A stretch of DNA of 64,000 nucleotides, from the NCBI GenBank assembly GCA_965237835.1, contig OZ250160.1, forward strand, positions 2,530,146 to 2,594,145, given 5' to 3'. The stretch is from Candidatus Poribacteria bacterium. Its GTDB lineage: Bacteria > Poribacteria > WGA-4E > WGA-3G. The position numbers and the translations under genes were made by a program. The notes beneath the pieces were generated by a model. The model was not told the DNA's origin, did no database searches, and saw nothing but the letters and a program-made list of their open reading frames with translations. Of the stretch, positions 30,040-50,120 are shown piece by piece (position 1 is the stretch's first letter; every line of letters starts with the position of its first letter).

Positions 30040-30850
30040 GTAGGTCGGGTAGAGCGTCCGCGAAACCCATAAGCGTCAATTTAAGAAAAGTCTGCGTTTT
30101 TATAAACACCTCTCAATAAGCATGAGGACTGAGATTGTCTTATATTTAGTCCCGTAGGGACGAAATGTTTATAGTACCTCGTCCTGCAAACCCATCTCTT
30201 CAGCTCCGTAGGAGCGAAATGTGTATAACGTCTTATTATAAACATATTGCCCCGCTGGGGAAATCAAAGAGCATTTTTCATATTTGAAATATCACTAAAT
30301 TGACGCCTATGGGTAGAGCGTCCGCGAAACCCGACAAGATTATTGTATCAGCACATGCCGGGTTTCGCTCTGCTCTACCCATAGGCGTCAATTTAAGAAA
30401 AGTCTGCGTTTTTATAAACACCTCTCAATAAGCATGAGGACTGAGATTGTCTTATATTTAGTCCCGTAGGGACGAAATGTTTATAGTACCTCGTCCTGCA
30501 AACCCATCTCTTCAGCTCCGTAGGAGCGATATGTGTATAACGTCTTATATAAACATATCGCCCCGTTGGGGAAATCAAAGAGCATTTTTCATATTTGAAA
30601 TATCACTAAATTGACACCTATGGGTTTCGCTCTGCTCTACCCATTAACGTCAATTTAGGCGTTTTTTGAGAATGAGACATGCTCTTTAATCCCGTAGGGA
30701 CGCAATGTTTATAGCAACGGAGGCACCCCCCCAATTCTTTAGCCCCGACGAATGCCATACGCGCATTCGGCGTTGATTTGGTAAGGGCGGAATGTTTATA
30801 ACGTGTTATTTCACATCTCACAATTAAAAAGTTGACATCTGCCCTTAGAT
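30040..30850. repeat. Mosaic REP/BIME-like repeat cluster: two ~300-bp units of hairpin modules delimited by taaattgacgcctatg...palindrome REPs
   Basis: The unit aagaaaagtctgcg...cccgtagggacgaaatgtttatag...ccgtaggagcgaaatgtgtataac...ccccgctgggg occurs twice. Related clusters lie at 36895-37510 and 49400-50120. Confidence 0.6.
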
Positions 30851-30860
30851 GTGATATACT
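30826..30860 (+). promoter_or_regulatory. Sigma-70-type promoter upstream of rpsU
   Basis: TTGACA, 17 nt, TATACT. Confidence 0.5.
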
Positions 30861-30896
30861 AACATTGTTATTTTTACCTATAGGAGGTTTGTAGAT

Positions 30897-31121
30897 ATGG
30901 TTCAAGTTGAAGTCACAGTCGATTCAGGTGAAACATTTGATAGGGCACTCGCTCGCTTCAAAAAGATGTGTGGTAAGGCGGGTGTTGTCACTGAAATTAA
31001 AAAACGGAGTTTCTACGAAAAGCCGAGCGAAAAACGGCGCCGAATCGAACTGAAACGTCAGCGGAAAGTAAAACCGCGGACGACAGAGTATCGCCCACGC
31101 TACGATAACAGTAGTAGATAG
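30897..31121 (+). CDS. rpsU: 30S ribosomal protein S21
   Basis: 74 aa, highly basic, with the S21 signature ALARFKKMCGKAGV...KRSFYEKPSEKRRR. Confidence 0.9.
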   Translation: MVQVEVTVDSGETFDRALARFKKMCGKAGVVTEIKKRSFYEKPSEKRRRIELKRQRKVKPRTTEYRPRYDNSSR

Positions 31122-31142
31122 GCGGTTCAGGAGGTAGTGTGT

Positions 31143-31670
31143 ATGTCCGTTCGGGATGTTGAGATGACTAATGGGAATTATAAAGGACTTTTAATTCAAT
31201 ATTGCCAAGAACGCGGATTGAGTCAGCCACTATTCACGGAAACACAACACGGCAGACCGGACTCACCCGCTTGGAAGGTTACAGTACATTATGGAGACAG
31301 GGTCCACGAGATGACAGAACCGATACCGGGTGCGAAAAAAGATGCTCACCAATTCGCCGCAAAACAGGTACTTGATTCAATTGGCGATAATCGTGAACGT
31401 TTGTTAGCAGGCGAGGACAATGCAACAGACGCTATTATAACCGAACCTATTGAGACAGCGGAACTTAATGAACCTCTTGAGGTGGCGTTACCGCTTGTTA
31501 CAAGTGCATTGGCAATTGCAAATGAACGACTCGGAACATCGCAGCCATCGCGTTATCGAGGTATTTCTGATGCCGAATTCTCTCGAAAGTTATCGCAGTT
31601 GACGATGCGGATTGTCAGAGATTTGGCGAAGGCAGCGGATGAAGCGAATATAAAGTTTCCGCAGACATAA
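31143..31670 (+). CDS. Hypothetical protein with N-terminal dsRNA-binding-domain-like fold
   Basis: The pattern NYKGLLIQYCQERGLSQPLF...AWKVTVHYGD...GAKKDAHQFAAKQVL matches the dsRBD alpha-beta-beta-beta-alpha consensus. GGAGG RBS 9 nt upstream. Confidence 0.45.
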   Translation: MSVRDVEMTNGNYKGLLIQYCQERGLSQPLFTETQHGRPDSPAWKVTVHYGDRVHEMTEPIPGAKKDAHQFAAKQVLDSIGDNRERLLAGEDNATDAIITEPIETAELNEPLEVALPLVTSALAIANERLGTSQPSRYRGISDAEFSRKLSQLTMRIVRDLAKAADEANIKFPQT

Positions 31671-31683
31671 GCAAGATGATGGC

Positions 31684-31712
31684 GGGGTCAGGATTCTGAC
31701 CCCGTTTTTTTA
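31684..31712 (+). terminator. Rho-independent terminator of the rpsU operon
   Basis: ggggtcagg-attc-tgaccccg followed by ttttttt. Confidence 0.65.
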
Positions 31713-31811
31713 TTGCAGTCAAGGATCTGAACCAGGATTATTTCCATCTATTGTCCTTGAATGTCCGAGGCGCAATAAATTGCGCGACTACAAACGAAGA
31801 TTTAAAATTAT

Positions 31812-32495
31812 ATGGTTGAACGGATTAAACATCGACTACGGCAAAACCGATTTTTGGCACCATTGATGGGGTGTCCTTATCCCGCACCGCGCTGGAATCG
31901 AGCTGTTAAACGTGTGATCCGAGAACTGGGACCTGACGCGCAGATTTTGGACCTGGGATCTGGAACGCATCGCCGTGCACCGAATGTGATTAATCTTGAG
32001 ATTGAAGCGACTCCGATGGTGGATGTTGTGGCGGATGGGCATTGTCTGCCGTTTGCGGATAACGTGTTTGATGCGGTTATCTCTGAGGCGGTGCTGGAGC
32101 ATGTCCGAGAACCACAGCATATTGTAGCGGAGATGTTTCGTGTGCTAAAGCCGGGTGGATATGTGTGCGCAGCGGTGCCGTTCTTGCAGGGGTATCATGC
32201 ATCTCCTCACGATTATCAAAGATGGACAGCGACAGGGTTCGTGACGTTGTTTTCTCAGTTTCGTGAGATTGAAAGCGGTGCATGTGCGGGTCCGACTGCG
32301 GCATTGCATTGGATTTTTCGGGAGTATGTCGGGCTTATATGTTCTTTTGGGAGTTTGTTGGTTGCGAAGGCTGTATCGCTTCTTGTTGGCTGGTTGACAT
32401 TTCCGTTAGTGTTGTTGGATATGTTGTTGATGTTGCATCCGCATTCGCATATTTTAGCGTCTGCGGTGTATTTCGTTGGTCAGAAAGAGACGTAA
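31812..32495 (+). CDS. Class I SAM-dependent methyltransferase (Methyltransf_11-like)
   Basis: Motif I ILDLGSGTH, motif II/III region DNVFDAVISEAVLEH...VLKPGG. Confidence 0.75.
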   Translation: MVERIKHRLRQNRFLAPLMGCPYPAPRWNRAVKRVIRELGPDAQILDLGSGTHRRAPNVINLEIEATPMVDVVADGHCLPFADNVFDAVISEAVLEHVREPQHIVAEMFRVLKPGGYVCAAVPFLQGYHASPHDYQRWTATGFVTLFSQFREIESGACAGPTAALHWIFREYVGLICSFGSLLVAKAVSLLVGWLTFPLVLLDMLLMLHPHSHILASAVYFVGQKET

Positions 32496-32499
32496 TATC

Positions 32500-32630
32500 C
32501 TTTTATTGTAGGGGTGGGCCCCGTGCCCGCCCGTCTCCCGAAATCTGTAGGGGCGGGACCGCGTGCCCGCCCATCTCCCGAAATCTGTAGGGGCGGGACC
32601 CCGTGCCCGCCCGTTTTTGTATAATTCACA
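32500..32630. repeat. Array of three ~40-bp REP elements (GTAG plus the palindrome gggcggg...cccgccc) flanking the RAYT gene
   Basis: The unit tctGTAGgggcgggaccccgtgcccgcccgtctcccgaaa is repeated three times. Confidence 0.7.
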
Positions 32631-32634
32631 ACGT

Positions 32635-33201
32635 TTATTCTGAATGTTCCAGTTCCCATTTGCGAACATTGTTGTAGATATACTCCCGCACAGATCGCAA
32701 AGCACCATCATTTCGGATAACATGGTCATGAAACGAAATTTCCCACAATTTCTTGCTAAACCGTTGCCAACCATTTTGCTTAACACCTTGGATGTATTGG
32801 TTTGTTGTTAAGGATTTGAACCGTTCCATTAGTGTGATTAAAGAAATTGATTCTTTTGAATCTGAAGGTTGCTTTGAAGTAGACAAATCTCCTCTTTCTA
32901 TCCTATTGTATTTTGGTTTGATGATAAGAATGCCATGGAAGTGGTCGGGCATGACTTGGAAAATATCTAATTCAATCTGCGGTGAATATAGCGGCAATTC
33001 TTGCCAAGTTGTTTTTACCATGTGACCGGCATCCGTTAATACAATTTTGCCGTTTTGCAGGTGTGCAAATAGACAAAAGCGGTTCTTTGTTGTGAGTGTT
33101 ACGAAATACCATCCGGGTTGGGAATAGTCATATCCAGGGAGGCGAAGGCTTTCGGATTTGGGGTAATACATCTTTTCTTTATTTCGGATGTAGCGGGGCA
33201 C
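32635..33201 (-). CDS. REP-associated tyrosine transposase (RAYT; IS200/IS605-like Y1 HUH enzyme)
   Basis: HUH motif PDHFHGIL. C-terminal Tyr motif REYIYNN. 188 aa. GTAG-palindrome REPs on both sides. Confidence 0.7.
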   Translation of the reverse strand: MPRYIRNKEKMYYPKSESLRLPGYDYSQPGWYFVTLTTKNRFCLFAHLQNGKIVLTDAGHMVKTTWQELPLYSPQIELDIFQVMPDHFHGILIIKPKYNRIERGDLSTSKQPSDSKESISLITLMERFKSLTTNQYIQGVKQNGWQRFSKKLWEISFHDHVIRNDGALRSVREYIYNNVRKWELEHSE

Positions 33202-33258
33202 GGGGTCCCCGCGCTACGTTTCTGCGGGGCACGGGGTCCCCGCGCTACAGTTATTCCA
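33190..33258. repeat. Two REP copies (reverse orientation) on the other flank of the RAYT gene
   Basis: gcggggcacggggtccccgcgctac twice. The reverse complement is GTAGcgcggggaccccgtgccccgc. Confidence 0.65.
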
Positions 33259-33259
33259 A

Positions 33260-34504
33260 TTATTCCACCGGTTGATATTTAGCTGCATCCACAAAATAGA
33301 GGAAGCCAATGCACATTTCATCTGTGGTTTTGTCTCCCCAACCGACGGGGACAGGTGGGTCGTGCGGGTTGGCTGGGTTCTTGACAGAATTGTCAAAGTG
33401 CGCAACAAGTGAAATACGCGTGCCAGCAGGAAGGAAGATCGGTTTACGATAATGATAGATGTCTTGCCAGTTGAAATCCCAATCCTGTATCCAGATAATA
33501 TCAATCGGATCGCCTGTCGGCGGTTTCGCAATGATCCGCATATCGCGTCCGAGCAGATGCATGTGTGGCATCGTGGCTAACAGATAACTATCCTTTTTGA
33601 CTTGACGCGATGCTTTCACAGGATACTTCGCCTCTCCGGCGGGGATTACGAATTTGTCGTTGATCGCCATACCGATCTCTAAAGGCGTTGTCTCCGGCGT
33701 TTTGGAGAAGTAAAGCCCAACTCGTGATTGGTCGCGTTCCGTGTGCCCAGTGCGGTAGTAATGCACCTGTAGCACGATGTCAGCACCTTTCGGTAACAGA
33801 TACCCGACACCTTTCGGTAGAACGGAAGGTCTGAGACCGGGTGCCCATCCGCCAAGTGTTCCCGCTGAATCAATGCCTGGACCGGTACCTTGTGTGACAT
33901 ACCCGGGTTTCGGGTCTTTCGCAGCAAGTTTACGGGCTTCTTCCTTCGTATCTAAATAGACAATGACGTGATGCACTGTCCTGCGGTTGCCCGGTTGAAC
34001 ATCAACGGCTTGGACATATATGTCTGTGTCAAAGTTGGTGGGAATGATAAAGTGCCGATATTCGTCTTCACCTTCCGGTTCAATTTCGTATTCCACTGGC
34101 ATTTCAAAGATATGATCAGGTTCACCGAGTGCCCACCCATCGTGGAATTTGGGGTTCGGTGGTGTTTTTGAGAGATCGCCTGCTGGTTTCCCTGCTTCTG
34201 CCCATTTGGTGATCATCTCAATCTCTTTGTCGGTGAGTCTACGTTCGTTTTTGAATTCACCATGTCCGACTGTTGGTTTCCAAGGCGGCATCAGGCGCGC
34301 TTTGGTGTATTCAGCAATTTCGGTCGCCCATGCTTTGGCGTCTCTATAGTCAGTGAGTGCAAAGGGTGCGACTTCACCTTGACGATGGCAGGATTGACAC
34401 TGTTTCTGTAGAATCGGTGCGATGTGTTCGCTGTAGGTGACTTCTGCCCGTAGGCAGGGTGCAAGTAGTGTAAACGTGATAAGTATGATTAAGAACTTTC
34501 TCAT
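33260..34504 (-). CDS. Secreted PSCyt1 (planctomycete-type cytochrome c) domain protein fused to a DBH/PHM-like copper monooxygenase-like domain
   Basis: Signal peptide. Haem motif CQSCH within HIAPILQKQCQSCHRQGEVAPFALTDY. Candidate Cu ligands HHVIVY, H~65 aa later, HMH and a downstream Met, spaced as in copper type II monooxygenases. Confidence 0.55.
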   Translation of the reverse strand: MRKFLIILITFTLLAPCLRAEVTYSEHIAPILQKQCQSCHRQGEVAPFALTDYRDAKAWATEIAEYTKARLMPPWKPTVGHGEFKNERRLTDKEIEMITKWAEAGKPAGDLSKTPPNPKFHDGWALGEPDHIFEMPVEYEIEPEGEDEYRHFIIPTNFDTDIYVQAVDVQPGNRRTVHHVIVYLDTKEEARKLAAKDPKPGYVTQGTGPGIDSAGTLGGWAPGLRPSVLPKGVGYLLPKGADIVLQVHYYRTGHTERDQSRVGLYFSKTPETTPLEIGMAINDKFVIPAGEAKYPVKASRQVKKDSYLLATMPHMHLLGRDMRIIAKPPTGDPIDIIWIQDWDFNWQDIYHYRKPIFLPAGTRISLVAHFDNSVKNPANPHDPPVPVGWGDKTTDEMCIGFLYFVDAAKYQPVE

Positions 34505-34588
34505 CGGTTCTGGATTGTCCTCCGGTTTTGTAGTTTGTTTATATTATAGTTTATTTGGTGGTGGATGTCAATCAAATTGACTATCTGT

Positions 34589-34710
34589 CAGGGTTATTTA
34601 GTTTTAGGCTTTTTGTCCATTTTATCCGAAAAGTCGCGATTCGGAGATCGCTCGGACAGCGGAAAGTCTTAAATTGAAAACCTAAATATTCGGAGAACTA
34701 AATAGCCCTG
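34589..34710. mobile_element. MITE-like element family 1 (single copy) with 8-bp target-site duplication CTATCTGT
   Basis: TIRs cagggttatttagtt / aactaaatagccctg. Flanking direct repeat ctatctgt. Confidence 0.65.
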
Positions 34711-34727
34711 ACTATCTGTAGCTTGCT

Positions 34728-34852
34728 CCGGTAATTTGTCTGAACCAGGATTCACAGGATTTTCGGATTTTCAAGGTTAGGAGTTGCGGATACAACCTAC
34801 GATGAGACGATGGGCGCGGCGTTCCTTAATCCTGAAAATCCTGGTTCAGACA
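34728..34852. repeat. MITE-like element family 2 (complete copy; IRs tctgaaccaggatt / aatcctggttcaga)
   Basis: Inverted repeats at both ends. Same family as the WD40 leader element. Confidence 0.5.
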
Positions 34853-34854
34853 AA

Positions 34855-35130
34855 AAAGCGGTGCGGTTAGGAAACCGCACCTTATGCGTCAATTTAGTGA
34901 TTTTTCGAATATAAAAAAGGCTCTTCAGTCCCGTAGGGACGATATGTTTATAGTACACCGTATAGACACGTCTCTTTAGCTCCGTAGGAGCGACATATCC
35001 CGATTCCTAATCCGATGCTAAAACATACCACCCTTACGGGCCTCAAGAGATTGACCGCCTCGTTTTCTATAAACATTGCGTCCCTACTCTCATACACGGA
35101 AAACCACTAAATTGACGCCTATGGGATCCG
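34855..35130. repeat. REP / hairpin-module cluster
   Basis: gcggttaggaaaccgcaccttatgcgtcaattta followed by several ccgtagggacgatatgtttatag-type modules. Confidence 0.5.
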
Positions 35131-35217
35131 AGTGAGGTAACCCGCCCCGCTTTAGACTTCGGCAGTCGGCTTGATGAATACCCCAAACTCGGCACCGACG
35201 GTGCCAGCACGTGGGAT

Positions 35218-35493
35218 ATGACGCGCAGAGATTTTTTAGCCGAAGCAGAAAAATACGAGGCGATCCTCACATCGCAACGGGAGGCAGGTATAGATAGAAG
35301 CCCCGATGATGTTTTCGGTAACAAATACCGAACCTTTGAATCTATACCTGATTTTATTATTTACGCTGCGTGGGAAAGTATTACAAACAATTACGACGCC
35401 CCCGCGCCCTCGCGATCCCGTATGCTGAAAGATATAGAAAAAGAAACCGACGAATCGGGGTGTTTACTTGATGACCCTGATACCTATTGGTGA
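35218..35493 (+). CDS. Hypothetical protein (may extend upstream)
   Basis: ORF only, with no recognisable domain. Confidence 0.3.
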   Translation: MTRRDFLAEAEKYEAILTSQREAGIDRSPDDVFGNKYRTFESIPDFIIYAAWESITNNYDAPAPSRSRMLKDIEKETDESGCLLDDPDTYW

Positions 35494-35523
35494 GAGACAG
35501 CAGGTACGACATTTGAAGAACAA

Positions 35524-35793
35524 GTGGAACGCGCGCAAAAAACTTTGAGTGAAAACTGGGGGAGTTTATCGCACAAGGATAAGGCAGGGACACAGGATTT
35601 TTTGCATCATTTTCAGGACAATCCGCGCGCGCTCAATCATATTGCTCAGCTCGCGGAACAGCATAAAATTGACTCCGCGCACGCGCTCAAAACGCTCTAC
35701 GAACTGAATAAAGATGCCTATACCGCACTGCAGAAAGTTGAACAGCAGGAAGACCAACCTATAGAACAAAAAGAAGATGATAAAGCGGATTGA
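35524..35793 (+). CDS. Hypothetical protein (acidic C-terminus)
   Basis: ORF only. Confidence 0.3.
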   Translation: MERAQKTLSENWGSLSHKDKAGTQDFLHHFQDNPRALNHIAQLAEQHKIDSAHALKTLYELNKDAYTALQKVEQQEDQPIEQKEDDKAD

Positions 35794-35816
35794 GAGCTGC
35801 GCGGCAGGTGCGGAAA

Positions 35817-36893: not shown

Positions 36894-36894
36894 A

Positions 36895-37510
36895 TATGAA
36901 AAATGCTCTTTGATTTCCCCAGCGGGGCGATATGTTTATAGAAAAAGTGCTACCCCTAACTCTTTGGTTTCCCCAGCGGGGCAATATGTTTATAATAAGA
37001 CGTTATATACATTTCGCGGAGCTGAAGAGATGGGTTTGCAGGACAAGGTACTATAAACATATCGTCCCTACGGGACTAAATATAAGACAATCTCAGTCCT
37101 CATGCTTATTGAGAGGTGTTTATAAAAACGCATATTTTTCTTAAATTGACGCCTATGGTGCGGTTAGGAAACCGCACCATAGGCGTCAATTTAAGGAAAC
37201 GTCTATGTTTTTATGAACCCTTATCAATAGGCATGGTTATTGATATTGTCGGACATTTAGTCCCGTAGGGACGATATGTTTATAGTACACCGTCCAGACA
37301 CGTCTCTTTAGCTCCGTCCGAGCGACATATCCCGATTGGTAACCCATTGCTATAAACATTCCGCCCCTACGGGGCTGAAGAGATTGGGGTTACCACGTTT
37401 TCTATAAACATATCGTCCCTACGGGACTGAAGAGCATTTCTCATATTTGAAAAACTACTAAATTGACGCCTATGGTGCGGTTAGGAAACCGCACCTACCG
37501 GACCTGGGGA
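36895..37510. repeat. Mosaic REP/BIME-like cluster (reverse-orientation copy of the 30.0-30.8 kb unit plus extra modules)
   Basis: The perfect palindrome taaattgacgcctatggtgcggttaggaaaccgcaccataggcgtcaattta lies near 37141. Multiple hairpin+ATGTTTATA modules. Confidence 0.6.
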
Positions 37511-37561
37511 AAATCGGCTTTACCGAATTAAATACTTAAACTCATCAGCGCGGTGCGTATG

Positions 37562-42557: not shown

Positions 42558-43168
42558 ACAGATTATTGGTACGTCAAATCACACGCTAAACGCTATAATT
42601 GCATTTGGCGTGTGATTTGACGGCTTGAAACCACTCTTACCCACCCTAAAATCACTCTAAGTTCTCACCTCTAAAGGAGCGACCTCCCAGTCGCTACTTT
42701 CTCATTAAAATTCTAAAAATTGCAACTATGGTCCGTATAAAAATAAGTAGAAACTTATTTACTTGACCTGTACGCGCGCAGATTCACAGTGCATCGTTCA
42801 TTGCAAAGTCTGTAATAGATTCTGCAAATTTACTTGTGTGATGAAGAGGCATTAAGTGTGTCACTGCTTGTGGTTCTAAACCAAACTTTATTGAAAAATT
42901 ATATTTTCATGTGTTGCTAAAGTAAACCCTTTTAATATTGTTATCGTTTCCTAGTCCAGAATCATGATTCTTTCGAGTTATTGCTTTCTGCAGAAAAGCA
43001 ATACGAGTTGTGGCAAGTTAGCAAAATAATTTTCAAATAGTCTGTAGACAGGTTCTGAAGTTCGTCTATTCACACATTAGATAAGAAAGAACATAGAACC
43101 TCCTTAAATAAACACAAAAGTCAACAGGCTGATAACTACTAAATATACACAACCTAAGGGAGTTTATC

Positions 43169-45256
43169 ATGGAAAAGCAAATTTTGAACCAAAAAATCGA
43201 CATGTTCATTTTCTGGATAGTATTACTCATAATTGGTATACAAAATATAGGTTATGCGGAACTGGAGTTCACAGAAGGTGATACAACCACTCGCGAAATA
43301 GAAGAAAATACGCCTGCCAGCACAAACATTGGAGCATCATTGAGATATACTGCAGAGGGAGTCAATAGCTGCTCCCGTGTGATACTTCGTGGTCCGGATG
43401 CAAGGGCATTCGACGTTGACCGTGTCTTTCGCGGCATACAGTTGAAAACCAAATCCGCATTGGACTATGAGACCAAGGACTCCTATGAAGTGAAGGTCAT
43501 CATCTCAGCTTCAGTTGGAGGCAGCAGGGACGCAATCACCGTGACTATTACGGTGACGGATGTCAACGAAGCACCGATGTTTGCTGAGGCGAGTGATGGC
43601 GGGAACCGTATTTACCGCTCAATCCCAGAAAATACAGCGGTAGGCACAAACATCGGAGATCCAGTGTCGGCGATCGATCCTGATGGCTCCGAAGTCGCCT
43701 TGACATACAGCCTGAGTGGCATGAACGCGGATATGTTTGGGATTGACAGTACTACGGGACAGTTGAAAACCTCCGCCCCACTCAACTATGAGGCTTTCGC
43801 CAACGAGCCGCGTGCCTATCTCGTAAGTGTCCGTGTCTTTGATGGTACGATGGATGCTGAAATGGAGGTCAGCATTGCTGTTGAACCTGTAAACGAATTC
43901 GCACCCATGTTTATAGAAGGAGACGCGGCGACCCGCGAGATACACGAAAAAGAAGAGGGAGGCGCGAATATTGGGGTGCCTGTCTCAGCGACAGATATGG
44001 ACATCGGTGAGACTTTAGAATACAGCCTCACCGATGCCGATCTGGATGTATTTGAGATTGATAGTGGTACGGGTCAGTTGAGAACTAAGGCTGCACTGGA
44101 TTATCAAACCAAGCCAGTCCATACGGTGAAAGTAGTGGTCTCGGATGGTACTCGGATCGACAGCATTTTGGTTACTATTAATGTTTTGACTGATGTTGTG
44201 GAAGTGCCAGATCCAGTCTTGGCGAGGATGATTCGTAGAAAACTCGGCTTGCGGGCAGGTGCCGATATCACAAAGAAGGCGATGTTAGAATTAACGACAC
44301 TGAATGCCAACAGAGGCAGGCCAGAGATAAATATTATCACTGGATTGGAACACGCGACGAACCTGACGACGTTACTTCTCGATTACAATAGCATCAACGA
44401 CCTCACGCCACTTACCGGTCTGACGAACCTGATAACGCTACGTATTGATGGTAATCGTGTCGATAGAATTATGCCGCTTGCGGGTTTGACGAATCTGACG
44501 ACGCTACATCTCGCGGACAATCGGATAGGTTATCTTGAACCGCTTGTGGGTCTGACGAATCTCACAGATTTACGCCTCGAATTCAATCGAATAGACGATA
44601 TCACATCACTTGATGGTTTAACCAACCTAAAGACGTTACATCTGGCGCAGAATACCCGACTTACGGATGTCAGTCCCCTCGCAGGGTTAGTTAGTCTTGA
44701 AACTTTAACACTCGCAGGATGTCCGATTGAGGATTTTACGCCGCTTGCTGATCTCACGGCAGATATTGATGTTCTAGGAGGATCTGCTCCGGCGGCGAAC
44801 CGAAACGGAATCAATGTTCTTCTGGATCCGGTAGTGCTTAAGAAATTAGATAGAAAAGCACTTCAGGGACTGCTGCAAAGGTTGCATACTGTAAGCAACG
44901 GGTCTCTGAAGTACCGTGAAATGATTGCTTTGATTGGAAAAATTTTGAAATCAAAACGTCCAAACAAAACAACGCTGCTTGCTAACTATCCGAACCCGTT
45001 CAACCCGGAGACGTGGATACCGTATCATCTCGCACACGGCAGTGATGTGCGGATCGATATTTTTGATACGCACGGCACCGTCATCCGGCATTTAGAGTTG
45101 GGACATCAATCGGCAGGCTATTATACCAATAGGAACGATGCAGCATACTGGGATGGTCTCAATGATTCCGGTGAACATGTTACGACTGGGATATATTTCT
45201 ATCAGCTGCAAGCAGACAATGTGTCCCCAATGCGCAAAATGGTTATCCTCAAATAG
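43169..45256 (+). CDS. Secreted cadherin-repeat and leucine-rich-repeat protein with a T9SS-type (Por) C-terminal sorting domain
   Basis: Cadherin motifs VTDVNEAPMF and VEPVNEFAPMF. LRR run LTNLTTLHLADNRIGYLEPLVGLTNLTDLRLEFNRI. C-terminus NYPNPFNPETWIPYHL...IDIFDTHG...WDGLNDSGEHVTTGIYFYQL matches the TIGR04183-like consensus. Confidence 0.75.
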   Translation: MEKQILNQKIDMFIFWIVLLIIGIQNIGYAELEFTEGDTTTREIEENTPASTNIGASLRYTAEGVNSCSRVILRGPDARAFDVDRVFRGIQLKTKSALDYETKDSYEVKVIISASVGGSRDAITVTITVTDVNEAPMFAEASDGGNRIYRSIPENTAVGTNIGDPVSAIDPDGSEVALTYSLSGMNADMFGIDSTTGQLKTSAPLNYEAFANEPRAYLVSVRVFDGTMDAEMEVSIAVEPVNEFAPMFIEGDAATREIHEKEEGGANIGVPVSATDMDIGETLEYSLTDADLDVFEIDSGTGQLRTKAALDYQTKPVHTVKVVVSDGTRIDSILVTINVLTDVVEVPDPVLARMIRRKLGLRAGADITKKAMLELTTLNANRGRPEINIITGLEHATNLTTLLLDYNSINDLTPLTGLTNLITLRIDGNRVDRIMPLAGLTNLTTLHLADNRIGYLEPLVGLTNLTDLRLEFNRIDDITSLDGLTNLKTLHLAQNTRLTDVSPLAGLVSLETLTLAGCPIEDFTPLADLTADIDVLGGSAPAANRNGINVLLDPVVLKKLDRKALQGLLQRLHTVSNGSLKYREMIALIGKILKSKRPNKTTLLANYPNPFNPETWIPYHLAHGSDVRIDIFDTHGTVIRHLELGHQSAGYYTNRNDAAYWDGLNDSGEHVTTGIYFYQLQADNVSPMRKMVILK

Positions 45257-45459
45257 TATCAAATGACCATTTTCCTATGGGCGCGGTTTCATGAAGATTA
45301 AGAATTTAAGTTGGGTTCAAGCTCGAATTACCTAATTTATTTTTTAATCTTCATCCAACCGTGCCCATTTTTCTAAGTAAACTTTCCATTTTTTCTTCAT
45401 AATTGAATACTTTAGAAGTTGACACGGTATTATACCAAATTAACGGGATTTGTCCTATT

Positions 45460-45760
45460 TTCCGGATGGTAAGTGCGGTTTCCGAACCGCACCTTATGCG
45501 TCAATTTAGTGGTCCCCAACCCGGCAGGAGCGGTTTCTAACCGAACCTTTTTGTATCAACATCTCAAATAACGCAAAGGACGAGAATATCAGTGTTCGTA
45601 GTCGCGCAATTCACGCGCCTCTTTTCTTTGAATGTAAGAGGCGCGTGAATTGCGCGACTACAAACGAGTTCTTTCCTTAAATTGACGCTTATGGTGCGGT
45701 TTCCTAGCCGCACTGATAGATTGGAATCAAGTTAATTTGGTATTAGTTTCCCTTTAGTTT
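45460..45760. repeat. Cluster of three REP families (A: GTAG-gtgcggtt..aaccgcac; C: GTAG-tcgcgcaattc..attgcgc; E-type tail)
   Basis: ggtaagtgcggtttccgaaccgcacc, cgtagtcgcgcaattcacgcgcc...ggcgcgtgaattgcgcgactac, ggtgcggtttcctagccgcac. Confidence 0.55.
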
Positions 45761-46216
45761 CTATTTCTGTTCAATGGTTCTCTCTTGTAAGGACGACTTC
45801 CTAAATAAAATGCGCGAAATCTTAAACAAAATTACCCCGTGAAGTTGGTAAAATTCTTTTACATTTCCTGCAAATGGTAGTAAAATAGGGTGAATTTATA
45901 CGCTACAAGGATCTCCAGGAATCTAACTATGGATGTTGAACTACCGAAAGAGAAATATGATCAATTAATCAATGACGGTTACTGTGTCGTTGAACATGTC
46001 TTAAAGGAAGCTATGCTCTCACAACTTAGATCAGTAACCGACGAATTGCTTGACGCACAGACAGATGATGAACGCGATGCACACCGTTCGTCTGGTAGCA
46101 TGATTAGTGTGTATAAACATTCTTTTTTTGCTGAACTGGTAGTTTATCCTGAAGCATTACGGACCCTTGATGCTTTGGGATTTTTGAGACCAAAATGGTC
46201 GTCAGGATATGTCATC

Positions 46217-47669
46217 GGGTGTGTAAAGTTTTTGGCATGAACATCACGCAGCTTTTGTATTTGGATACCAATATCTGTCCCAGGCATCATTCTTCAACAA
46301 ACACCGCCAAGAAAGCACAGCATTGATCCCCGGTTTCTCCCATCTCATAGAAGCTTGTTTGCATCTTTGTCCGACAACATGTTTACATGCACTCTCAATC
46401 ACACCACTTCCAATCTGATACCCCTTTTCCCGAAACTTTTTATACCGCATACGATCAGAATGTTTTTCAAAATACTTCGCTTCTCTTTCTAAGGTTTCAC
46501 ATACTTCCAGGTTTTGAGCAGCTAAGTTTCGGATGCGTGCGACTACTTCTGTGATGTTGCCAGCGTCCAGCAGGGGTTCCACCTCTTTTATCCATTTTCC
46601 GGTAGTTTCTGTTTCAGTCTCTCCGAAGGCGTGTTTGGCAACATTGAACAGATGAGATTTGGCGTGCATATAATCCACAATCTCAACAGCGTTTGGGAAG
46701 TATTTATCAGCTAAGTTCCAAATCCACGCCGCACCATCTCCGATAAAGACAATCTCCTGGTTTGTTATAGTTTCTTTATAGATACCAATGTTCGTTGCTA
46801 ACGCAAACAACTCCTTACCAAAGTGTTCCGCATCAGAACGACTGGCAATATACCGGATGCTTGATGTTCTGGCACTCGGTGTCGCATCAGAACCGTGTTG
46901 TGGATAGTCTTTGTAAATACAGCCAACTTTCACCTCATGCCACCCATCAGGTGAGTTCGTGTGGCACCCATCACAACTCACATACCACCGCTGATTGTCT
47001 TCAAGCGTTTGTGTTTCCACCTGTTCTGGCACACACAACGCTTCTGACCATTCACCCACTTTTTGATGCAGTGTCGTGTGGCTGACTTCTATCCCCTGAC
47101 GCGACAACTCCTCAGAGGCTTCTCTAAAGTCAAGACGCGCGGCCAAGCGACACATCGCTTCTGCCACACGACGCGTGTATTGTCCACGCAACTTTTGCTT
47201 AGCATCCCACGGCACATAGGTATGTCCAAGAGCACAACGATACACCCAACGCTCAACACTAATAACGCCACAAAGCGTCGTGAAATGTCGCTCTCTCAGA
47301 CGCAACGGACGACATGCTCGGCGACACTCAGGACATTCAATAGGTTCACGGACTTTCTCACCAGCCTCTTTAGAGATGCACATCTCTAAAAGCCTTTGTT
47401 CCCACGAACGAACCGCTTCAGATACAAGAACCTCCGCATCTTCTAACGATACACACCCCTCTGAGGTGATGTCTCTCACAAGATCGTTCACTTCTTCTAC
47501 AAACTTGTTCGCTTCTTCTCTAAACTCATTGATTTCACAACTTTTTAATGATATACTAAACATTGGTATCCTCCTTGATAAATGGAAGTTTTAGGAAGGA
47601 TACCATTTTTATGAATATATCGCAAGTTCTCCACTCAAATCACATTCATGCCAAAAACTTTACACACCC
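46217..47669 (-). mobile_element. Intact IS element (ISKra4-like) with 25-bp perfect terminal inverted repeats and a 9-bp target-site duplication TATGTCATC
   Basis: The left end gggtgtgtaaagtttttggcatgaa equals the reverse complement of the right end ttcatgccaaaaactttacacaccc. tatgtcatc is duplicated at both junctions. Confidence 0.75.
46244..47563 (-). CDS. Transposase (ISKra4-like family, DDE type)
   Basis: 439-aa ORF filling the IS, with N-terminal Zn-finger-like CPECRRAC...C..C and a DDE-like core (IVFIGDGAAWIWN...DYMHAKSHL). Confidence 0.6.
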   Translation of the reverse strand: MFSISLKSCEINEFREEANKFVEEVNDLVRDITSEGCVSLEDAEVLVSEAVRSWEQRLLEMCISKEAGEKVREPIECPECRRACRPLRLRERHFTTLCGVISVERWVYRCALGHTYVPWDAKQKLRGQYTRRVAEAMCRLAARLDFREASEELSRQGIEVSHTTLHQKVGEWSEALCVPEQVETQTLEDNQRWYVSCDGCHTNSPDGWHEVKVGCIYKDYPQHGSDATPSARTSSIRYIASRSDAEHFGKELFALATNIGIYKETITNQEIVFIGDGAAWIWNLADKYFPNAVEIVDYMHAKSHLFNVAKHAFGETETETTGKWIKEVEPLLDAGNITEVVARIRNLAAQNLEVCETLEREAKYFEKHSDRMRYKKFREKGYQIGSGVIESACKHVVGQRCKQASMRWEKPGINAVLSWRCLLKNDAWDRYWYPNTKAA

Positions 47670-48233
47670 TATGTCATCAGCAAACCCGCTCAGAGTCCAC
47701 CCCTCTTTTGGCATCAGGATTGGTGGGGTTGGAACGACCCGTGCAGCTACACAGCATTACCCCAGCAGCTATTTTTGATGTATTATCTGGTTGACACAAC
47801 ACCATATAACGGATGCCTTCGCGTAATAAAAGGTTCGCACCTTAAGCGGCATCCACTCCATGATATATTGCCAAACGCACATGGTGCGGAACTGCAGCGT
47901 GTGGAAAATCCGAACCATCCCGTATTTCAGCATTTCCCTGATGAGGTAGACATAATCGTAAATGCTGGTGACCTCGTTATCGGTGATTCTCGCCTGTTGC
48001 ATGCCTCACACGGCAATCAATCTGATGAACACCGCACAGTCATAACGCTTTGGTATCACCCGTTTTTCGCGCTATTACCGGCAGGGATGCAAGCACATAT
48101 AGGTAGGCTTAGACAGAGTCTCGCTTGGACAGATGCAGATTGGGAACGGATTGCTGAACTTGTCCCAGTTTTTGAAGGAGATGCTGAACCTATGAAATGG
48201 AATCGAGCACCTGGACCTGAACTGACATAACAA

Positions 48234-48355
48234 CAGGGCTATTTAGTTCTCCGAATATTTAGATTTTCAATCTAAGACTTTCCGCTGTAGGAGCGATCTC
48301 CGAATCGCGACTTTTCGTCTAAAATGGACAAAAAGTCTAAAACTAAATAACCCTG
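48234..48355. mobile_element. MITE-like element family 1 (single copy) with 8-bp TSD CATAACAA
   Basis: TIRs cagggctatttagtt / aactaaataaccctg, flanked by cataacaa on both sides. Confidence 0.65.
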
Positions 48356-48457
48356 CATAACAAGATTTAATTTGAAAGAGATTATATCTCATGATATACT
48401 CTACAGCAAAAAAGTTTTCGGTTTATAGTCGTGACGCCTAAAGAATAGGAGTTTGCC

Positions 48458-49216
48458 ATGCCACAGCCCCCGATTTTTCATACTTATACTTTCGGTGATC
48501 AAGAACGCGAAGAATTAGATCGTGATGGTCATTATGCCCTCCCAGGACTATTGACAGATGATGCTCAGGAACGATTGACAGAATCGTTGGCTCGGATTGA
48601 ATCACTTATACCTGGTTGTAAACAAGGATATGAACCGAACCGATTTTCTGCTGAGTATGATAGTTATCTTGAAAGTCTTATCCCTCATCCCCAAATGCTT
48701 AAACTCGCGCGTGAAGTACTCGGTGAAGATATTCGATACGACCACTGCGTTAGCCTCAATCGCCGGGGTGGCAATGGTGGCATCGGATGGCACAGCCACG
48801 GATACTCAGAAGATGATCCGCGCTACGGTTTTGTCCGCATCTTCTTCTATGTCAACGGATTTGAGGCAAATGATGGTGGTTTGAAGGCAGTCCCTGGAAG
48901 CCATCTGTACCGAGATCCAAAAATTCATGGTGCGACTGATGAGTTGTTGCAAAAAGGATGGTTAGCAGGAAAAACCCATCATGACACGGGTGAACCGTTG
49001 GAAATTGAGGCTTTATCGGTACCACCAGGAACGGTCGTATTGATGTGGACGCATGCGGCACATGCAGTAACACCAAGAAAACAGGATAGCGATACCAGAT
49101 GGACAGTCGTATACGCCTATCGTAAACCCGGTAAAGATGCTGGTGCGCGGTGGATCACTCCAGAATTTGAACGCAAACCTATCCCCGGTGCAGAAGGACT
49201 TATGTCTCTATATTAA
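48458..49216 (+). CDS. Second PhyH-family Fe(II)/2OG dioxygenase (intact)
   Basis: GWHSHGYSEDD, LKAVPGSHL, HAAHAVTPRKQDSDTRWTVVYAY. Confidence 0.7.
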   Translation: MPQPPIFHTYTFGDQEREELDRDGHYALPGLLTDDAQERLTESLARIESLIPGCKQGYEPNRFSAEYDSYLESLIPHPQMLKLAREVLGEDIRYDHCVSLNRRGGNGGIGWHSHGYSEDDPRYGFVRIFFYVNGFEANDGGLKAVPGSHLYRDPKIHGATDELLQKGWLAGKTHHDTGEPLEIEALSVPPGTVVLMWTHAAHAVTPRKQDSDTRWTVVYAYRKPGKDAGARWITPEFERKPIPGAEGLMSLY

Positions 49217-49399
49217 CGTGAGTTCGGTGTCCGAAATAACGTGAGTTTTGGTATAGATCAATACCTTCGCCGCCGACGCCGGACGCGGACGACCCCGCAT
49301 CTATGGTGATCGTTTCAACCCACGACAGATTGACGCAAAATACTGTGTTTCTACCGACATGATCGGGAATCTGAAAACCGAAGTATATCAAATGAAACT

Positions 49400-50120
49400 A
49401 CGTCACAAAGCGGTAGGTGCGGTTTCCTACACCGCACCTTATGCGTCAATTTAAGAAAAAGTCTGCGTTTGGACAAACACCTCTCAATAAGCATGAGGAC
49501 TGAGACTGTCTTATATTTAGTCCCGTAGGGACGATATGTTTATAGTACCTCGTCCCGCAAACCCATCTCTTCAGTTCCATCCGAGCGAAATGTGTATAAT
49601 GTCTTATATATAAACATTCCGCCCCTACGGGGAAACCAAAGAATTGGGGGTGCTTCCGTTGCTATAAACATTGCGTCCCTACGGGACTAAAGAGGGTTTC
49701 TCGGACACGGAAAATCACTAAATTGACGCTAATGGTGTGGTTTCCTAACCGCACCATTAGCGTCAATTTAAGGAAATAAACCTATATTTTGGATATCTTA
49801 GCCCCAGCGGGGCGGAATGTGTATAGACCACGATCCATACCAAACTCAAGCCCCAGCAGGGCGAAAGGTGTATATGGGCACATGTTGTCAGACATCTGTC
49901 ACCCCGAATCAACGCCAAATGCGCGTATGGCATTTGTCGGGGTTCAAGAGACTGTTGGACACCGTTTTCTATATACCTGTCGCACCGCTGGTGCTAAGAT
50001 GTGATTTACCAAAGCCTCGGGGGAGGCGAAAGATGTATCAGACGCACTAAATTGACGCCCATGGTGCGGTTTCCTAACCGCACCGATAGATTGGAATCCC
50101 GTTAATTTAGTATTAAACCT
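49400..50120. repeat. Mosaic REP/BIME-like cluster with hairpin+GAA(A/T)NNTGTNTA modules
   Basis: A copy of the 300-bp unit (49440-49700), followed by ccccagcggggcggaatgtgtataga, ccccagcagggcgaaaggtgtatatg, caccgctggtgctaagatgtgattta and cctcgggggaggcgaaagatgtatcag. Confidence 0.6.

What the first reader, a model, noticed from the sequence alone, without database searches (positions are those of the whole stretch)
30040..50120. Mosaic repeat clusters built from a recurring module: 4-5-bp GC hairpin with GTA(G) loop followed by GAA(A/T)NNTGTNTA, with compensatory stem changes
In clusters at 30040-30850, 34855-35130, 36895-37510 and 49400-50120 the same architecture recurs more than 15 times with different but always complementary stems. 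Examples are gtccc/gggac, gctcc/ggagc, cccc/gggg, cacc/ggtg and cctc/gagg, each followed by gaaatgtttata, gaaatgtgtata, gaaaggtgtata, taagatgtgatt or gaaagatgtatc. Covariation that preserves pairing while the downstream box is conserved argues for selection on a structure. It could be a recognition hairpin plus cleavage box for an HUH/Y1 enzyme, a family of small structured RNAs, or a protein-binding site. These modules are embedded between larger REPs (taaattgacgcctatg-[palindrome]-cataggcgtcaattta) in BIME-like ~300-bp units present in both orientations. I do not recognise this hairpin+box family.
Basis: seen in the sequence. Interest (0 to 1): 0.6.

Follow-up and report, generated by a model that had tools for sequence, protein, structure and literature searches.

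The report
Hairpin-plus-box repeat modules in Poribacteria
The repeats are real: a short DNA hairpin followed by a fixed 10-13-base box builds mosaic, inverted-repeat "junk DNA" elements between genes in sponge-associated Poribacteria and some soil bacteria, most likely a new relative of the known REP/REPIN mobile elements rather than an RNA gene.

Summary
The window, from a Candidatus Poribacteria genome, holds about 28 copies of a ~40-nt module: TCTTYAG, then a 5-bp GC stem, a 3-nt loop (mostly GTA) and the closing stem, then G-N-W-ATGTKTATAG. A test pattern gives 20 hits against 0.02 expected. A structure-blind, box-anchored scan of 116 related loci found a perfect hairpin at 232 of 317 boxes, with nine different fully complementary stems. 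The two variable stem pairs carry the highest mutual information of all column pairs.

Modules are almost always extragenic. They repeat in tandem at 49-54 nt and then flip, so boxes face inward, like a REPIN or MITE. In this genome they fill the space between GTAG-headed REP palindromes. The same four-hairpin element occurs in Acidobacteria and Verrucomicrobiota. It is absent from Rfam and from viral contigs.

There is no promoter, terminator or G:U signature, so an RNA reading is weak. The window's RAYT, and every other RAYT locus examined, is flanked by its own different REP, never by modules. The enzyme is therefore unidentified.

A 34-nt hairpin-plus-box mini-element sits precisely in the module loop, with empty and filled sites both seen. 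This points to single-stranded-DNA processes.

Verdict: a new variant of REP/REPIN-like mosaic elements, of moderate interest.

The parts
30037..30083 (.). Left boundary of cluster 1: GTAG-headed REP (GTAGGTCGGGTAGAGCGTCCGCGAAACCC) fused to REP half-site CCATAAGCGTCAATTTA
30136..30181 (+). Module, stem GTCCC/GGGAC, loop GTA, box GAAATGTTTATAG
   Evidence: 52.6 bits
30190..30235 (+). Module, stem GCTCC/GGAGC, box GAAATGTGTATAA, 54 nt after the previous copy
30229..30274 (-). Module, stem CCCC/GGGG, loop AGC, inverted so that its box faces the previous module's box
30296..30395 (.). 100-nt REP palindrome TAAATTGACGCCTATGG-GTAGAGCG...-CCATAGGCGTCAATTTA separating two near-identical units
30448..30493 (+). 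Module (GTCCC/GGGAC), second unit
30502..30547 (+). Module (GCTCC/GGAGC), second unit
30540..30585 (-). Module (CCCC/GGGG, loop AAC), second unit
30607..30657 (.). Degenerate REP palindrome (TAAATTGACACCTATGG...CCATTAACGTCAATTTA)
30676..30721 (+). Module (TCCC/GGGA, box GCAATGTTTATAG)
30729..30808 (+). Module (GCCC(C)/GGGC) split by the 34-nt mini-element
30747..30780 (+). 34-nt mini-element GACGAATGCCATACGCGCATTCGGCGTTGATTTG sitting in the module's hairpin loop, directly 5' of GTA(A)G
34860..34896 (.). REP hairpin GGTGCGGTTAGGAAACCGCACC plus half-site TTATGCGTCAATTTA; left boundary of cluster 2
34915..34960 (+). Module (GTCCC/GGGAC)
34966..35011 (+). Module with intact stem GCTCC/GGAGC but decayed box (GACATATCCCG)
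   Evidence: 33.9 bits
35060..35114 (-). Decayed module (5' arm lost; GTAGGGACGCAATGTTTATAG kept)
   Evidence: (19 bits)
35108..35124 (+). REP half-site TAAATTGACGCCTATGG; right boundary of cluster 2
36903..36948 (+). Module (CCCC/GGGG, loop AGC)
36957..37002 (+). Module (CCCC/GGGG), 54 nt after the previous copy
36996..37035 (-). Module with a 6-nt deletion that removes the loop and the 3' arm
37044..37089 (-). Module (GTCCC/GGGAC)
37142..37193 (.). Perfect 52-nt REP palindrome TAAATTGACGCCTATGGTGCGGTTAGGAAACCGCACCATAGGCGTCAATTTA
37247..37292 (+). Module (GTCCC/GGGAC)
37298..37343 (+). Decayed module (GCTCC GTC CGAGC; box lost)
   Evidence: (20 bits)
37343..37388 (-). Module (GCCCC/GGGGC, loop GTA)
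37395..37440 (-). Module (GTCCC/GGGAC)
37459..37495 (.). REP half-site plus hairpin; right boundary of cluster 3. The unit 37157-37482 recurs at 96-98% identity elsewhere in a related genome.
49417..49453 (.). REP hairpin plus half-site; left boundary of cluster 4
49507..49552 (+). Module (GTCCC/GGGAC)
49561..49606 (+). Module with weakened stem (GTTCC ATC CGAGC)
   Evidence: 28 bits
49601..49646 (-). Module (CCCC/GGGG(C), loop GTA)
49655..49700 (-). Module (GTCCC/GGGAC)
49719..49770 (.). REP palindrome (TAAATTGACGCTAATGG...CCATTAGCGTCAATTTA)
49788..49833 (+). Module (GCCCC/GGGGC, loop AGC, box GGAATGTGTATAG)
49837..49882 (+). Module (GCCCC AGC AGGGC, box GAAAGGTGTATAT)
49885..49965 (-). Module (CCCC/GGGG) whose loop holds the mini-element. 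The paralogous unit in L132 has the empty hairpin CCCCAGCGGGG.
49906..49938 (-). Second copy of the mini-element
49962..50007 (-). Module (GCACC/GGTGC, box GACAGGTATATAG).
50006..50041 (+). Divergent module (GCCTC GGGG GAGGC, box GAAAGATGTATCAG)
   Evidence: read directly from the sequence; not reached by the model at E<=1
50048..50084 (.). REP half-site plus hairpin; right boundary of cluster 4
55317..55362 (+). Present in L131 and L132, absent from L130.
32635..33201 (-). RAYT (Y1 transposase) gene. It is the candidate enzyme class, but its own flanking REPs (32508-32612, 33190-33252) are a different family.

Best explanation
The module is the building block of a family of non-autonomous, extragenic, inverted-repeat DNA elements that work like REPs and REPINs.

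Shown:
- Each module is a short palindrome kept complementary by compensatory change. It is flanked by a fixed 5' motif, TCTTYAG, and a fixed 3' box, G-N-W-ATGTKTATAG, which starts one base after the stem.
- Modules are arranged as n direct copies at a 49-54-nt period followed by m inverted copies, with the boxes facing inward. The whole element is therefore a long imperfect palindrome.
- In this genome such module blocks sit between GTAG-headed REP hairpins, and the whole ~300-bp unit is dispersed.
- Units differ by whole-module (54-nt) indels and by compensatory stem changes at homologous positions.
- The hairpin loop is a precise insertion site for a second, 34-nt hairpin+box element.

Inferred:
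- The selected structure is a hairpin in single-stranded DNA. It would be recognised, together with the adjacent box and/or the GTAG that spans the loop and 3' arm, by an enzyme supplied in trans. That enzyme is most likely a Y1/HUH transposase of the RAYT or IS200 kind.
- Tandem arrays would grow and shrink by slippage or unequal exchange.

The cognate enzyme has not been identified, and it is probably not the RAYT encoded in this window.
For: - Non-random and structured.
- Extragenic: 245 of 250 modules lie outside ORFs in DNA that is ~78% coding. They occur in convergent, divergent and co-directional spacers.
- Polar architecture: ++ and -- neighbours lie 49-54 nt apart. +- neighbours lie about 100 or 140-152 nt apart. 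-+ adjacency is rare.
- The whole unit 37142-37510 folds as single-stranded DNA at -91 kcal/mol, z = -14.
- Dispersal: the unit 37157-37482 recurs at 96-98% identity at other sites of a related genome. A paralogue of unit 49771-50047 lies at another locus in L132.
- Unit alignment shows a clean 54-nt module indel and stem swaps at homologous positions, for example GCCCCGCTGGGG versus GTCCCTACGGGAC.
- Turnover: a genome 98.4% identical keeps cluster 4 intact. A 95% relative has a different repeat cassette at the solo-module site.
- Single-strand-DNA-type activity in the same system: the mini-element occurs in 65 distinct contexts. 50 of them are preceded by CCCG and 18 lie in module loops. Empty and filled sites occur side by side.
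- These genomes carry several RAYT paralogues, each with tandem arrays of its own REP. Array copy number changes from 3 to about 27 between sister genomes.
- The GTAG that heads every RAYT-flanking REP seen here also sits at the loop/3'-arm junction of about 77% of modules.
- The string GTAGGAGCGAC of the GCTCC-type module equals the head of the REP that flanks a RAYT paralogue (one search compared).
- There is no RNA signature.
Against: - No module lies next to any RAYT examined, across two Y1 families in several genomes.
- No RAYT was found in about 0.9 Mb of module-bearing loci.
- No recurrent transposase family appears among 707 neighbouring ORFs.
- No '+ ... ORF ... -' autonomous copy was seen.
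- The canonical REP layout, with GTAG immediately 5' of the stem, is not met. About a fifth of modules (loops AGC, AGA and others) have no GTAG at all.
- No clean empty/filled site was found for a whole module element. Mobility of the module itself, as opposed to the composite unit and the mini-element, therefore rests on dispersal and indels.
- No complete genome was available for a full census of RAYT paralogues.
Confidence: 0.6

Rival explanations
1. The modules are terminal and subterminal binding sites of a MITE that is moved as double-stranded DNA by a DDE transposase encoded elsewhere. The inverted module pair acts as the terminal inverted repeats, and the hairpins are incidental.
For: The elements are inverted-repeat structures with a defined outer edge at TTYAG, about 190 bp long in Acidobacteria and Verrucomicrobiota. 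DDE transposases exist in related genomes.
Against: No target-site duplication is visible at element ends. Stems vary in sequence while keeping pairing, which a sequence-reading duplex-binding transposase would not require. No transposase gene was seen between inverted modules. The nested insertions into loops point to single-stranded hairpins.
Confidence: 0.13
2. The modules are a family of small structured RNAs or cis-acting RNA elements, such as processing or stability signals or protein-sponge hairpins, transcribed from the intergenic arrays.
For: Hairpin covariation with a conserved flank is what an RNA motif looks like. The module reverse strand partly resembles the 3' half of the Acido-Lenti-1 motif at 15 bits. 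Some copies pass a loose terminator-like scan.
Against: - Every element carries both orientations.
- Promoter-like sites are not enriched (11 against 13.1 expected), and there is no real T-run after the stem.
- G:T wobble (6) is not favoured over A:C (3) among 1045 pairs.
- Arrays change copy number and are interrupted by insertions.
- The modules are placed equally in divergent and convergent spacers.
- No Rfam family reaches threshold.
Confidence: 0.1
3. The arrays have been taken over by the host as binding platforms for a nucleoid or regulatory protein, as proposed for the BIME-IHF and BIME-gyrase interactions in E. coli. The box would be the contact sequence and the hairpin or cruciform a structural cue.
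For: The box and the 5' flank are far more conserved than the stem, even across phyla. Cluster 4 is kept unchanged in a genome 98.4% identical.
Against: The conservation equals that of the flanking genes, so it is uninformative. Content is replaced wholesale in a 95% relative. Many copies are decayed. There is no consistent position relative to genes.
Confidence: 0.1
4. There is no selection on structure. The palindromes are simply copied by duplication, and complementarity is restored by intrastrand templated repair.
For: Most copies belong to a few abundant stem types (GTCCC/GGGAC 158 of 250), which is consistent with copying.
Against: Nine distinct perfect stems share the same flanks. The two variable pairs give the top mutual information of all column pairs. 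97.7% of 1045 pairs are Watson-Crick, across about 40 species-level genomes and several phyla.
Confidence: 0.05

Closest known systems
REP / BIME elements of Enterobacteria and their RAYT (TnpA-REP) enzymes
   Same: Both are short extragenic palindromes with a conserved flank. Both are assembled with linker motifs into mosaic clusters in both orientations. The genomes encode RAYTs, and the tetranucleotide GTAG recurs.
   Different: In a canonical REP, GTAG lies immediately 5' of the stem and there is no 3' box. Here GTAG spans the loop and 3' arm, the 5' foot is TYAG, and a 10-13-nt 3' box is the best-conserved part. No RAYT gene was found flanked by modules, whereas the GTAG-headed REPs of the same genomes are.
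REPINs (REP doublets forming hairpins; Bertels & Rainey 2011, PMC3116915)
   Same: Inverted pairs are the basic unit. The whole element folds into a long hairpin in single-stranded DNA, with an alternative 'clover' of local hairpins. Both form higher-order tandem clusters, and both show insertion of elements into or next to one another (for the definition; here).
   Different: REPIN groups each sit beside their cognate RAYT. That was tested here and not found. Direct tandem amplification at a ~52-nt period and the cross-phylum sequence conservation are not typical REPIN features.
Modular intergenic mosaics: pneumococcal BOX (boxA-boxB(n)-boxC), neisserial NIMEs/Correia elements, rhizobial RIMEs (from my own knowledge)
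   Same: Lego-like units bounded by inverted repeats, with an internal module present in a variable number of tandem copies.
   Different: There is no sequence similarity. Those families are genus-restricted, whereas this module spans phyla.
Small dispersed repeats (SDR) of Nostoc/Anabaena (Elhai et al. 2008, Genome Res 18:1484; cited in PMC4390886 and PMC3116915)
   Same: Tiny (20-35 nt) hairpin-bearing units inserted at precise positions inside other repeats. SDR5 inserts between the third and fourth bases of HIP1. Here the 34-nt mini-element lies after CCCG, often in the module loop.
   Different: Different sequences and a different phylum. Here the host repeat is itself a hairpin, and the insertion is in its loop.
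IS200/IS605 ends and their miniature derivatives (PATEs) (from my own knowledge)
   Same: A subterminal hairpin with a cleavage or target sequence a fixed few bases away. Insertion 3' of a short specific sequence without target duplication; this matches the mini-element's CCCG rule.
   Different: IS200/IS605 ends are direct, not inverted, on one strand. No guide-target covariation between the 5' flank and the box was detected. No TnpA or TnpB gene is associated.
Acido-Lenti-1 RNA motif (Rfam RF01687)
   Same: Its 3' half (CUA-N9-C, a 5-bp GC stem, a 3-nt loop, then U) resembles the module's reverse strand. It is found in Acidobacteria, where modules also occur. A true hit lies in one module-bearing contig (L007).
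   Different: Modules score only 15 bits against a threshold of 37. The spacing differs by one base. The 8-bp 5' hairpin of the motif is absent.

Membership tests
REP (repetitive extragenic palindrome) | Short, repeated, extragenic, imperfectly palindromic sequence | tested here: met
   20 hits against 0.02 expected. 245 of 250 lie outside ORFs. 97.7% of stem pairs are Watson-Crick.
REP (repetitive extragenic palindrome) | Conserved GTAG tetranucleotide at the 5' foot of the hairpin (E. coli-type RAYT substrate) | tested here: not met
   The 5' foot is T(T/C)AG. GTAG occurs instead at the loop/3'-arm junction in about 77% of copies.
REPIN | REPs organised mainly as inverted doublets able to form a long hairpin | tested here: met
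   There are 51 '+-' neighbour pairs at about 100-152 nt against 4 close '-+' pairs. The unit fold has z = -14.
REPIN | A cluster of the same REP type immediately flanks its cognate single-copy RAYT gene | tested here: not met
   RAYT loci from two Y1 families carry other REPs and no module beside the gene. No RAYT lies in 116 module loci. The census of paralogues within any one genome is incomplete.
REPIN | Excision or transposition intermediates, or insertion polymorphism | tested here: inconclusive
   Composite units are dispersed and differ by module indels. Cassette replacement is seen between close genomes. No clean empty/filled site was found for a module element.
MITE of a DDE transposon | Terminal inverted repeats plus a target-site duplication, and a full-length parent with a transposase | tested here: not met
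   The inverted ends are present, but no duplication is seen at element ends, and no parent copy appears in about 1 Mb of loci.
IS200/IS605-derived miniature element (PATE) | Two subterminal hairpins on the same strand, with cleavage sites specified by a guide sequence 5' of the hairpin | tested here: not met
   The ends are inverted. There is no covariation between the 5' flank and the box.
Structured RNA family (Rfam) | A match to a curated covariance model at its gathering score | tested here: not met
   There are 0 hits at the gathering score in the window. The best partial hit is Acido-Lenti-1 at 15.3 bits against 37.
Structured RNA family (generic) | Strand-specific expression and tolerance of G:U pairs | tested here: inconclusive
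   G:T 6 against A:C 3, so no asymmetry. No promoter signal. Expression data are not available with these tools.
Intrinsic terminator | A GC-rich stem followed by an uninterrupted T/U tract | tested here: not met
   The stem is only 5 bp and the tail is GATATGTTTA. A genuine terminator at 31681-31716 looks quite different.

The most novel reading that the evidence does not exclude
The hairpin+box modules and the 34-nt hairpin+box mini-element may be substrates of an unrecognised single-stranded-DNA transposition system shared across phyla (Poribacteria, Acidobacteria, Verrucomicrobiota). It would be distinct from the classical RAYT-REP pairing. Exposed hairpin loops would be the preferred landing sites, and units as small as 34 nt would be mobile, placing them among the smallest mobile DNAs known. 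The nested mosaics in this window would be the fossil record of that process.
Probability: 0.22. Interest if true: 0.72.

Novelty: new variant of a known kind. Interest (0 to 1): 0.5.

Why it matters
Poribacteria are uncultured sponge symbionts, and their intergenic DNA has not been described.

This work gives a defined, searchable repeat family (covariance model R1). It occurs in at least 40 species-level Poribacteria genomes and in soil Acidobacteria and Verrucomicrobiota.

It also describes a hierarchy of nested hairpin elements:
- REPs cognate to a RAYT;
- composite REP-bounded units;
- ~52-nt modules;
- a 34-nt mini-element with a CCCG target rule.

Why that is useful:
- The system is a natural test bed for how REP/REPIN-type DNA originates, diversifies and co-evolves with domesticated Y1 transposases, which remains an open question for REPINs.
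- The repeat clusters coincide with synteny breaks and cassette replacement, so they matter for genome assembly and for rearrangement in these symbionts.
- The arrays also generate spurious ORF calls, for example a 441-aa 'gene' inside a REP array.

Tried and rejected
- Rfam at gathering score and at E<=10 gave only microRNA-like chance hits on the long REP palindrome and a 15-bit partial Acido-Lenti-1 hit.
- A viral-contig scan with the module pattern gave 0 hits.
- tBLASTn of the window RAYT, a second Y1 protein and 12 homologues against 116 module loci gave only one distant partial hit, 3.5 kb from a module.
- Clustering 707 neighbouring ORFs produced only the families typically expanded in Poribacteria (WD40, PhyH, GFO/IDH, sulfatase). 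No transposase family emerged.
- Pfam on the neighbours of the non-Poribacteria copies returned housekeeping genes only.
- I searched for an alternative hairpin between the 3' arm plus linker and the sequence after the box. The apparent excess was an artefact of the next tandem module's 5' arm.
- I looked for guide-target covariation between the 5' flank and the box and found none.
- The promoter/terminator scan showed no promoter enrichment. Modules pass only a loose terminator filter.
- Looking up the exact HAD protein for strain variants returned only the source genome.
- A split-HSP search for clean empty sites of whole modules returned only module-number differences between paralogous units.
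- Literature searches for Poribacteria with REP, and for 'Poribacteria-1', found nothing relevant.
- The CRISPR, type III antitoxin array, attC and dif-like readings were rejected on anatomy. The spacers are constant within arrays. No toxin, integrase or cas gene is adjacent. The stems are only 5 bp. There is no match to the dif consensus.

Full report
**Source and setting**

The window comes from a Candidatus Poribacteria chromosome. Exact-protein look-ups place it on a 5.93-Mb contig of sample ERZ26167216. The module pattern hits almost only Poribacteria MAGs in the genome collection. Genes around the clusters are ordinary: ComEC, TauE, rpsU, a methyltransferase, a PD40 protein, a HAD hydrolase, PhyH, a sigma-54 activator and a redoxin. 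No tRNA and no Rfam family is present.

**Checking the observation**

All four clusters contain the module. An ungapped alignment of 21 copies shows three parts:
- a 5' flank, TCTT(C/T)AG;
- a 5-bp stem (columns 14-18 paired with 22-26) with a 3-nt loop;
- a box, G-N-W-ATGT(T/G)TATA(G), that begins one base after the stem.

The test pattern gives 20 hits against 0.02 expected. The covariance model R1 gives 26 hits in the window, all in the four clusters except one solo copy at 55317-55362. Two more copies are interrupted by a 34-nt insertion, and one divergent copy lies at 50006-50041.

The module there is on the minus strand.

**Covariation**

Three tests did not presuppose pairing.
- The collection scan fixed only the inner CC/GG pairs. 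In 183 of 188 hits the two free outer positions were fully complementary, in seven combinations.
- I anchored on the 9-mer box alone across 116 loci plus the window. Of 317 boxes, 232 have a perfect 5-bp hairpin at the fixed offset. Nine different perfect stems occur: GTCCC, GCCCC, GTTCC, GCTCC, GCGCC, GCACC, GCCTC, GTGCC and GCCGC.
- Among 228 distinct 54-nt module windows, the two largest mutual-information values of all column pairs are 15-25 (0.81 bit) and 16-24 (0.72 bit).

The tool count on the 150 best model hits shows 100% pairing, with 19 double-change cells against 1.9 in shuffles. That set is dominated by one stem type. Paralogous units in the window also show compensatory differences at homologous positions.

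**Architecture**

- Same-strand neighbours are 49-54 nt apart.
- A plus copy followed by a minus copy lies about 100 or 140-152 nt away, in 51 cases.
- Minus-then-plus adjacency is rare.

Elements are therefore n forward modules followed by m inverted modules, with boxes facing inward and the TTYAG side outward. Arrays reach 12 or more copies (L094, L035).

In the window, each block of 3-5 modules, with a ~60-nt leader and a ~25-nt trailer, is bounded by the half-sites CCATAGGCGTCAATTTA and TAAATTGACGCCTATGG. These in turn abut a REP hairpin, either GGTGCGGTT-AGGA-AACCGCACC or GTAGGTCGGGTAGAGCG...; there are 21 half-sites against 0.15 expected.

The unit 37142-37510 folds as single-stranded DNA into one long hairpin at -91 kcal/mol, z = -14. 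Local module hairpins would be the alternative 'clover' form that has been discussed for REPINs.

Units differ by one clean 54-nt module indel, by decay of individual modules and by stem swaps.

**Distribution**

By my count of the record titles, these come from 40 Poribacteria species-representative genomes and about a dozen other records: Pyrinomonadaceae and other Acidobacteria, Chthoniobacterales/Verrucomicrobiota, one Bacteroidetes, and unclassified MAGs.

I calculate about 17 chance hits for 18 fixed bases over the whole collection. The non-Poribacteria hits are not chance, however. They show the same compound element: an outer module, an inner AAGCTCCGTAGGAGCG hairpin, its inverted copy, and an inverted outer module, about 190 bp in all. 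The outer stems differ: GCTCC, GCGCC, GTCCC, GTGCC and GTTCC. These elements lie between housekeeping genes such as glpK-glpD.

Model R1 finds 331 hits in the first 100 loci. There are no hits in viral contigs.

**Position relative to genes**

245 of 250 modules lie outside ORFs of at least 120 aa, although ORFs cover about 78% of the loci. The spacers that hold modules are 60% co-directional, 20% convergent and 19% divergent, against 75%, 13% and 11% for all spacers. Unlike classical REPs, the modules show no preference for 3' ends.

**RNA or DNA?**

- Promoter-like sites are not enriched (11 against 13.1 expected).
- Modules lack a T-run. Four of them pass a loose terminator filter only because of the T-rich box.
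- Among 1045 stem pairs, 1021 are Watson-Crick, 6 are G:T and 3 are A:C. There is thus no wobble asymmetry of the kind expected for selection on one transcript strand.
- Both orientations occur in every element.

I therefore favour selection at the DNA level. Expression itself could not be tested.

**Which enzyme?**

The ORF at 32635-33201 is a RAYT: weak Pfam Y1_Tnp, an HxH motif and a C-terminal Y, with homologues named RayT. It is flanked by three copies of GTAGGGGCGGGACCCCGTGCCCGCCC on one side and two copies of GTAGCGCGGGGACCCCGTGCCCCGC on the other.

In a sister genome with about 96% gene identity, the same arrays hold about 27 and at least 15 copies.

Orthologues and paralogues of this RAYT, and of a second 157-aa Y1 family, sit in conserved gene neighbourhoods. 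Each is flanked by its own GTAG-headed REP array.
- R1 finds no module beside any of these RAYT genes. One weak hit (25.8 bits) lies about 260 nt upstream in L135.
- No RAYT lies in the 116 module loci.
- No recurrent transposase family appears among neighbouring ORFs.

A Y1/HUH enzyme acting in trans remains the most economical idea, for three reasons:
- GTAG is the common head of all REP classes seen here, and it also spans the loop/3'-arm junction of about 77% of modules.
- The GCTCC-type module shares the 11-mer GTAGGAGCGAC with the REP that flanks one RAYT paralogue.
- In this genome the module blocks are carried between REP hairpins that resemble those beside the second Y1 family.

**The mini-element**

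A 34-nt unit, (G)NCAAATGCCAWACGCGCATTTGG-CGTTGATTTG, has its own 8-bp hairpin and a 3' box. It lies exactly between the 5' arm and GTAG of the module hairpin.

Empty and filled modules alternate within one array (L098). The window has two filled copies, at 30747-30780 and 49906-49938. The paralogue of the second one in L132 has the empty hairpin CCCCAGCGGGG.

A metagenome scan plus the held loci gave 65 distinct flank contexts:
- 50 are preceded by CCCG.
- 18 are in module loops.
- 47 are elsewhere, inside GTAG REPs or in tandem with related hairpin+CGTTGATTT units.

Its own stem covaries: CCAA/TTGG, CTGA/TCAG and CGGA/TCCG.

This shows that hairpin loops in this system are targets of precise DNA insertion. 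The pattern resembles the 3'-of-target rule of IS200/IS605 and the SDR5-in-HIP1 case in cyanobacteria.

The solo module at 55317 also lies in a ~135-bp cassette inside the loop of another palindrome (GTCTGAA...TTCAGAC). That cassette is replaced wholesale in a close relative.

**Dynamics**

- A genome 98.4% identical (L132) keeps cluster 4 collinear.
- A 95% relative differs at several repeat sites.
- The cluster upstream of rpsU ends exactly where synteny with the sister genome breaks, at window position ~30821.

**Conclusion**

The finding is real. It describes an uncatalogued, widely distributed hairpin+box repeat that works like a REP/REPIN building block. It fails two defining tests for REP/REPIN membership: GTAG at the 5' foot, and adjacency to a cognate RAYT.

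The steps shown are structure conservation, architecture, extragenic location, dispersal, indels and loop-targeted nested insertion. The steps inferred are recognition of a single-stranded-DNA hairpin by a trans-acting Y1/HUH enzyme, and array growth by slippage.

Noticed in passing
window 30747-30780 (+) and 49906-49938 (-); L098 1700-2700; L132 4290-4335: A 34-nt hairpin+box mini-element (…ATGCCAWACGCGCATT…GTTGATTTG) lies precisely in the module hairpin loop. Empty and filled sites both exist. It occurs in 65 distinct contexts, 50 of them preceded by CCCG. It may be among the smallest mobile DNA units.
   Followed up: yes
window 32508-32612 and 33190-33252; L118 5936-7002 and 7653-8225: The RAYT gene is flanked by tandem arrays of its own GTAG-headed REPs, with 40-nt and 31-nt periods. 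Copy number goes from 3 and 2 in the window to about 27 and at least 15 in a sister genome. There the array is mis-called as a 441-aa ORF.
   Followed up: partly
L125 1-1600; L133-L141: A second 157-180-aa Y1_Tnp (RAYT-like) family has several paralogues per Poribacteria genome. Each lies in conserved synteny and has its own REP array, for example ATCGTGGTTTTAGACCACTCCAAC x24. In L133 it occupies the same gene slot as the window's RAYT.
   Followed up: partly
window 11500-25400: A 3.6-4.8-kb segment containing WD40-repeat genes is present in three to four copies at 85-100% identity (families D1-D17).
   Followed up: no
window 570-831 and 48225-48355: A 131-bp repeat, tandem at 570-831, contains another GTAG REP (GTAGGAGCGATCTCCGAATCGCGAC). 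Related copies occur in L042 and L084.
   Followed up: no
window 52001-52097, 45716-45760, 50085-50125; L118 4899-5156: A ~91-bp MITE has ends ATACCAAATTAAC...GTTAATTTGGTAT and carries a GTAG REP in its centre. Two tandem copies, plus duplicated GAGGCGCAAT..TTGCGCGACTACAAACG hairpins, are inserted in the sister genome between the dsRBD gene and the methyltransferase gene.
   Followed up: partly
window 55230-55410 compared with L130 12470-12640: A ~135-bp cassette of repeats, including the solo module, sits inside the loop of a GTCTGAA...TTCAGAC palindrome. It is completely replaced by other repeat modules in L130. L131 carries the window's version, although elsewhere it is about 99% identical to L130.
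   Followed up: partly
L132 12150-12592: A 441-bp insertion of unknown nature lies 13 nt downstream of the solo module, relative to the window (between 55375 and 55376).
   Followed up: no
window 45714-48338 compared with L132 4163-4640: A 2.6-kb segment, holding a 439-aa ORF with no Pfam hit and a PhyH fragment, is present in the window. In L132 it is replaced by an extra REP-bounded five-module unit.
   Followed up: no
L007 64-109: A genuine Acido-Lenti-1 (RF01687) match at 40.5 bits lies in the same unclassified-bacterium contig that carries modules. The 3' half of that motif resembles the module's reverse strand.
   Followed up: partly
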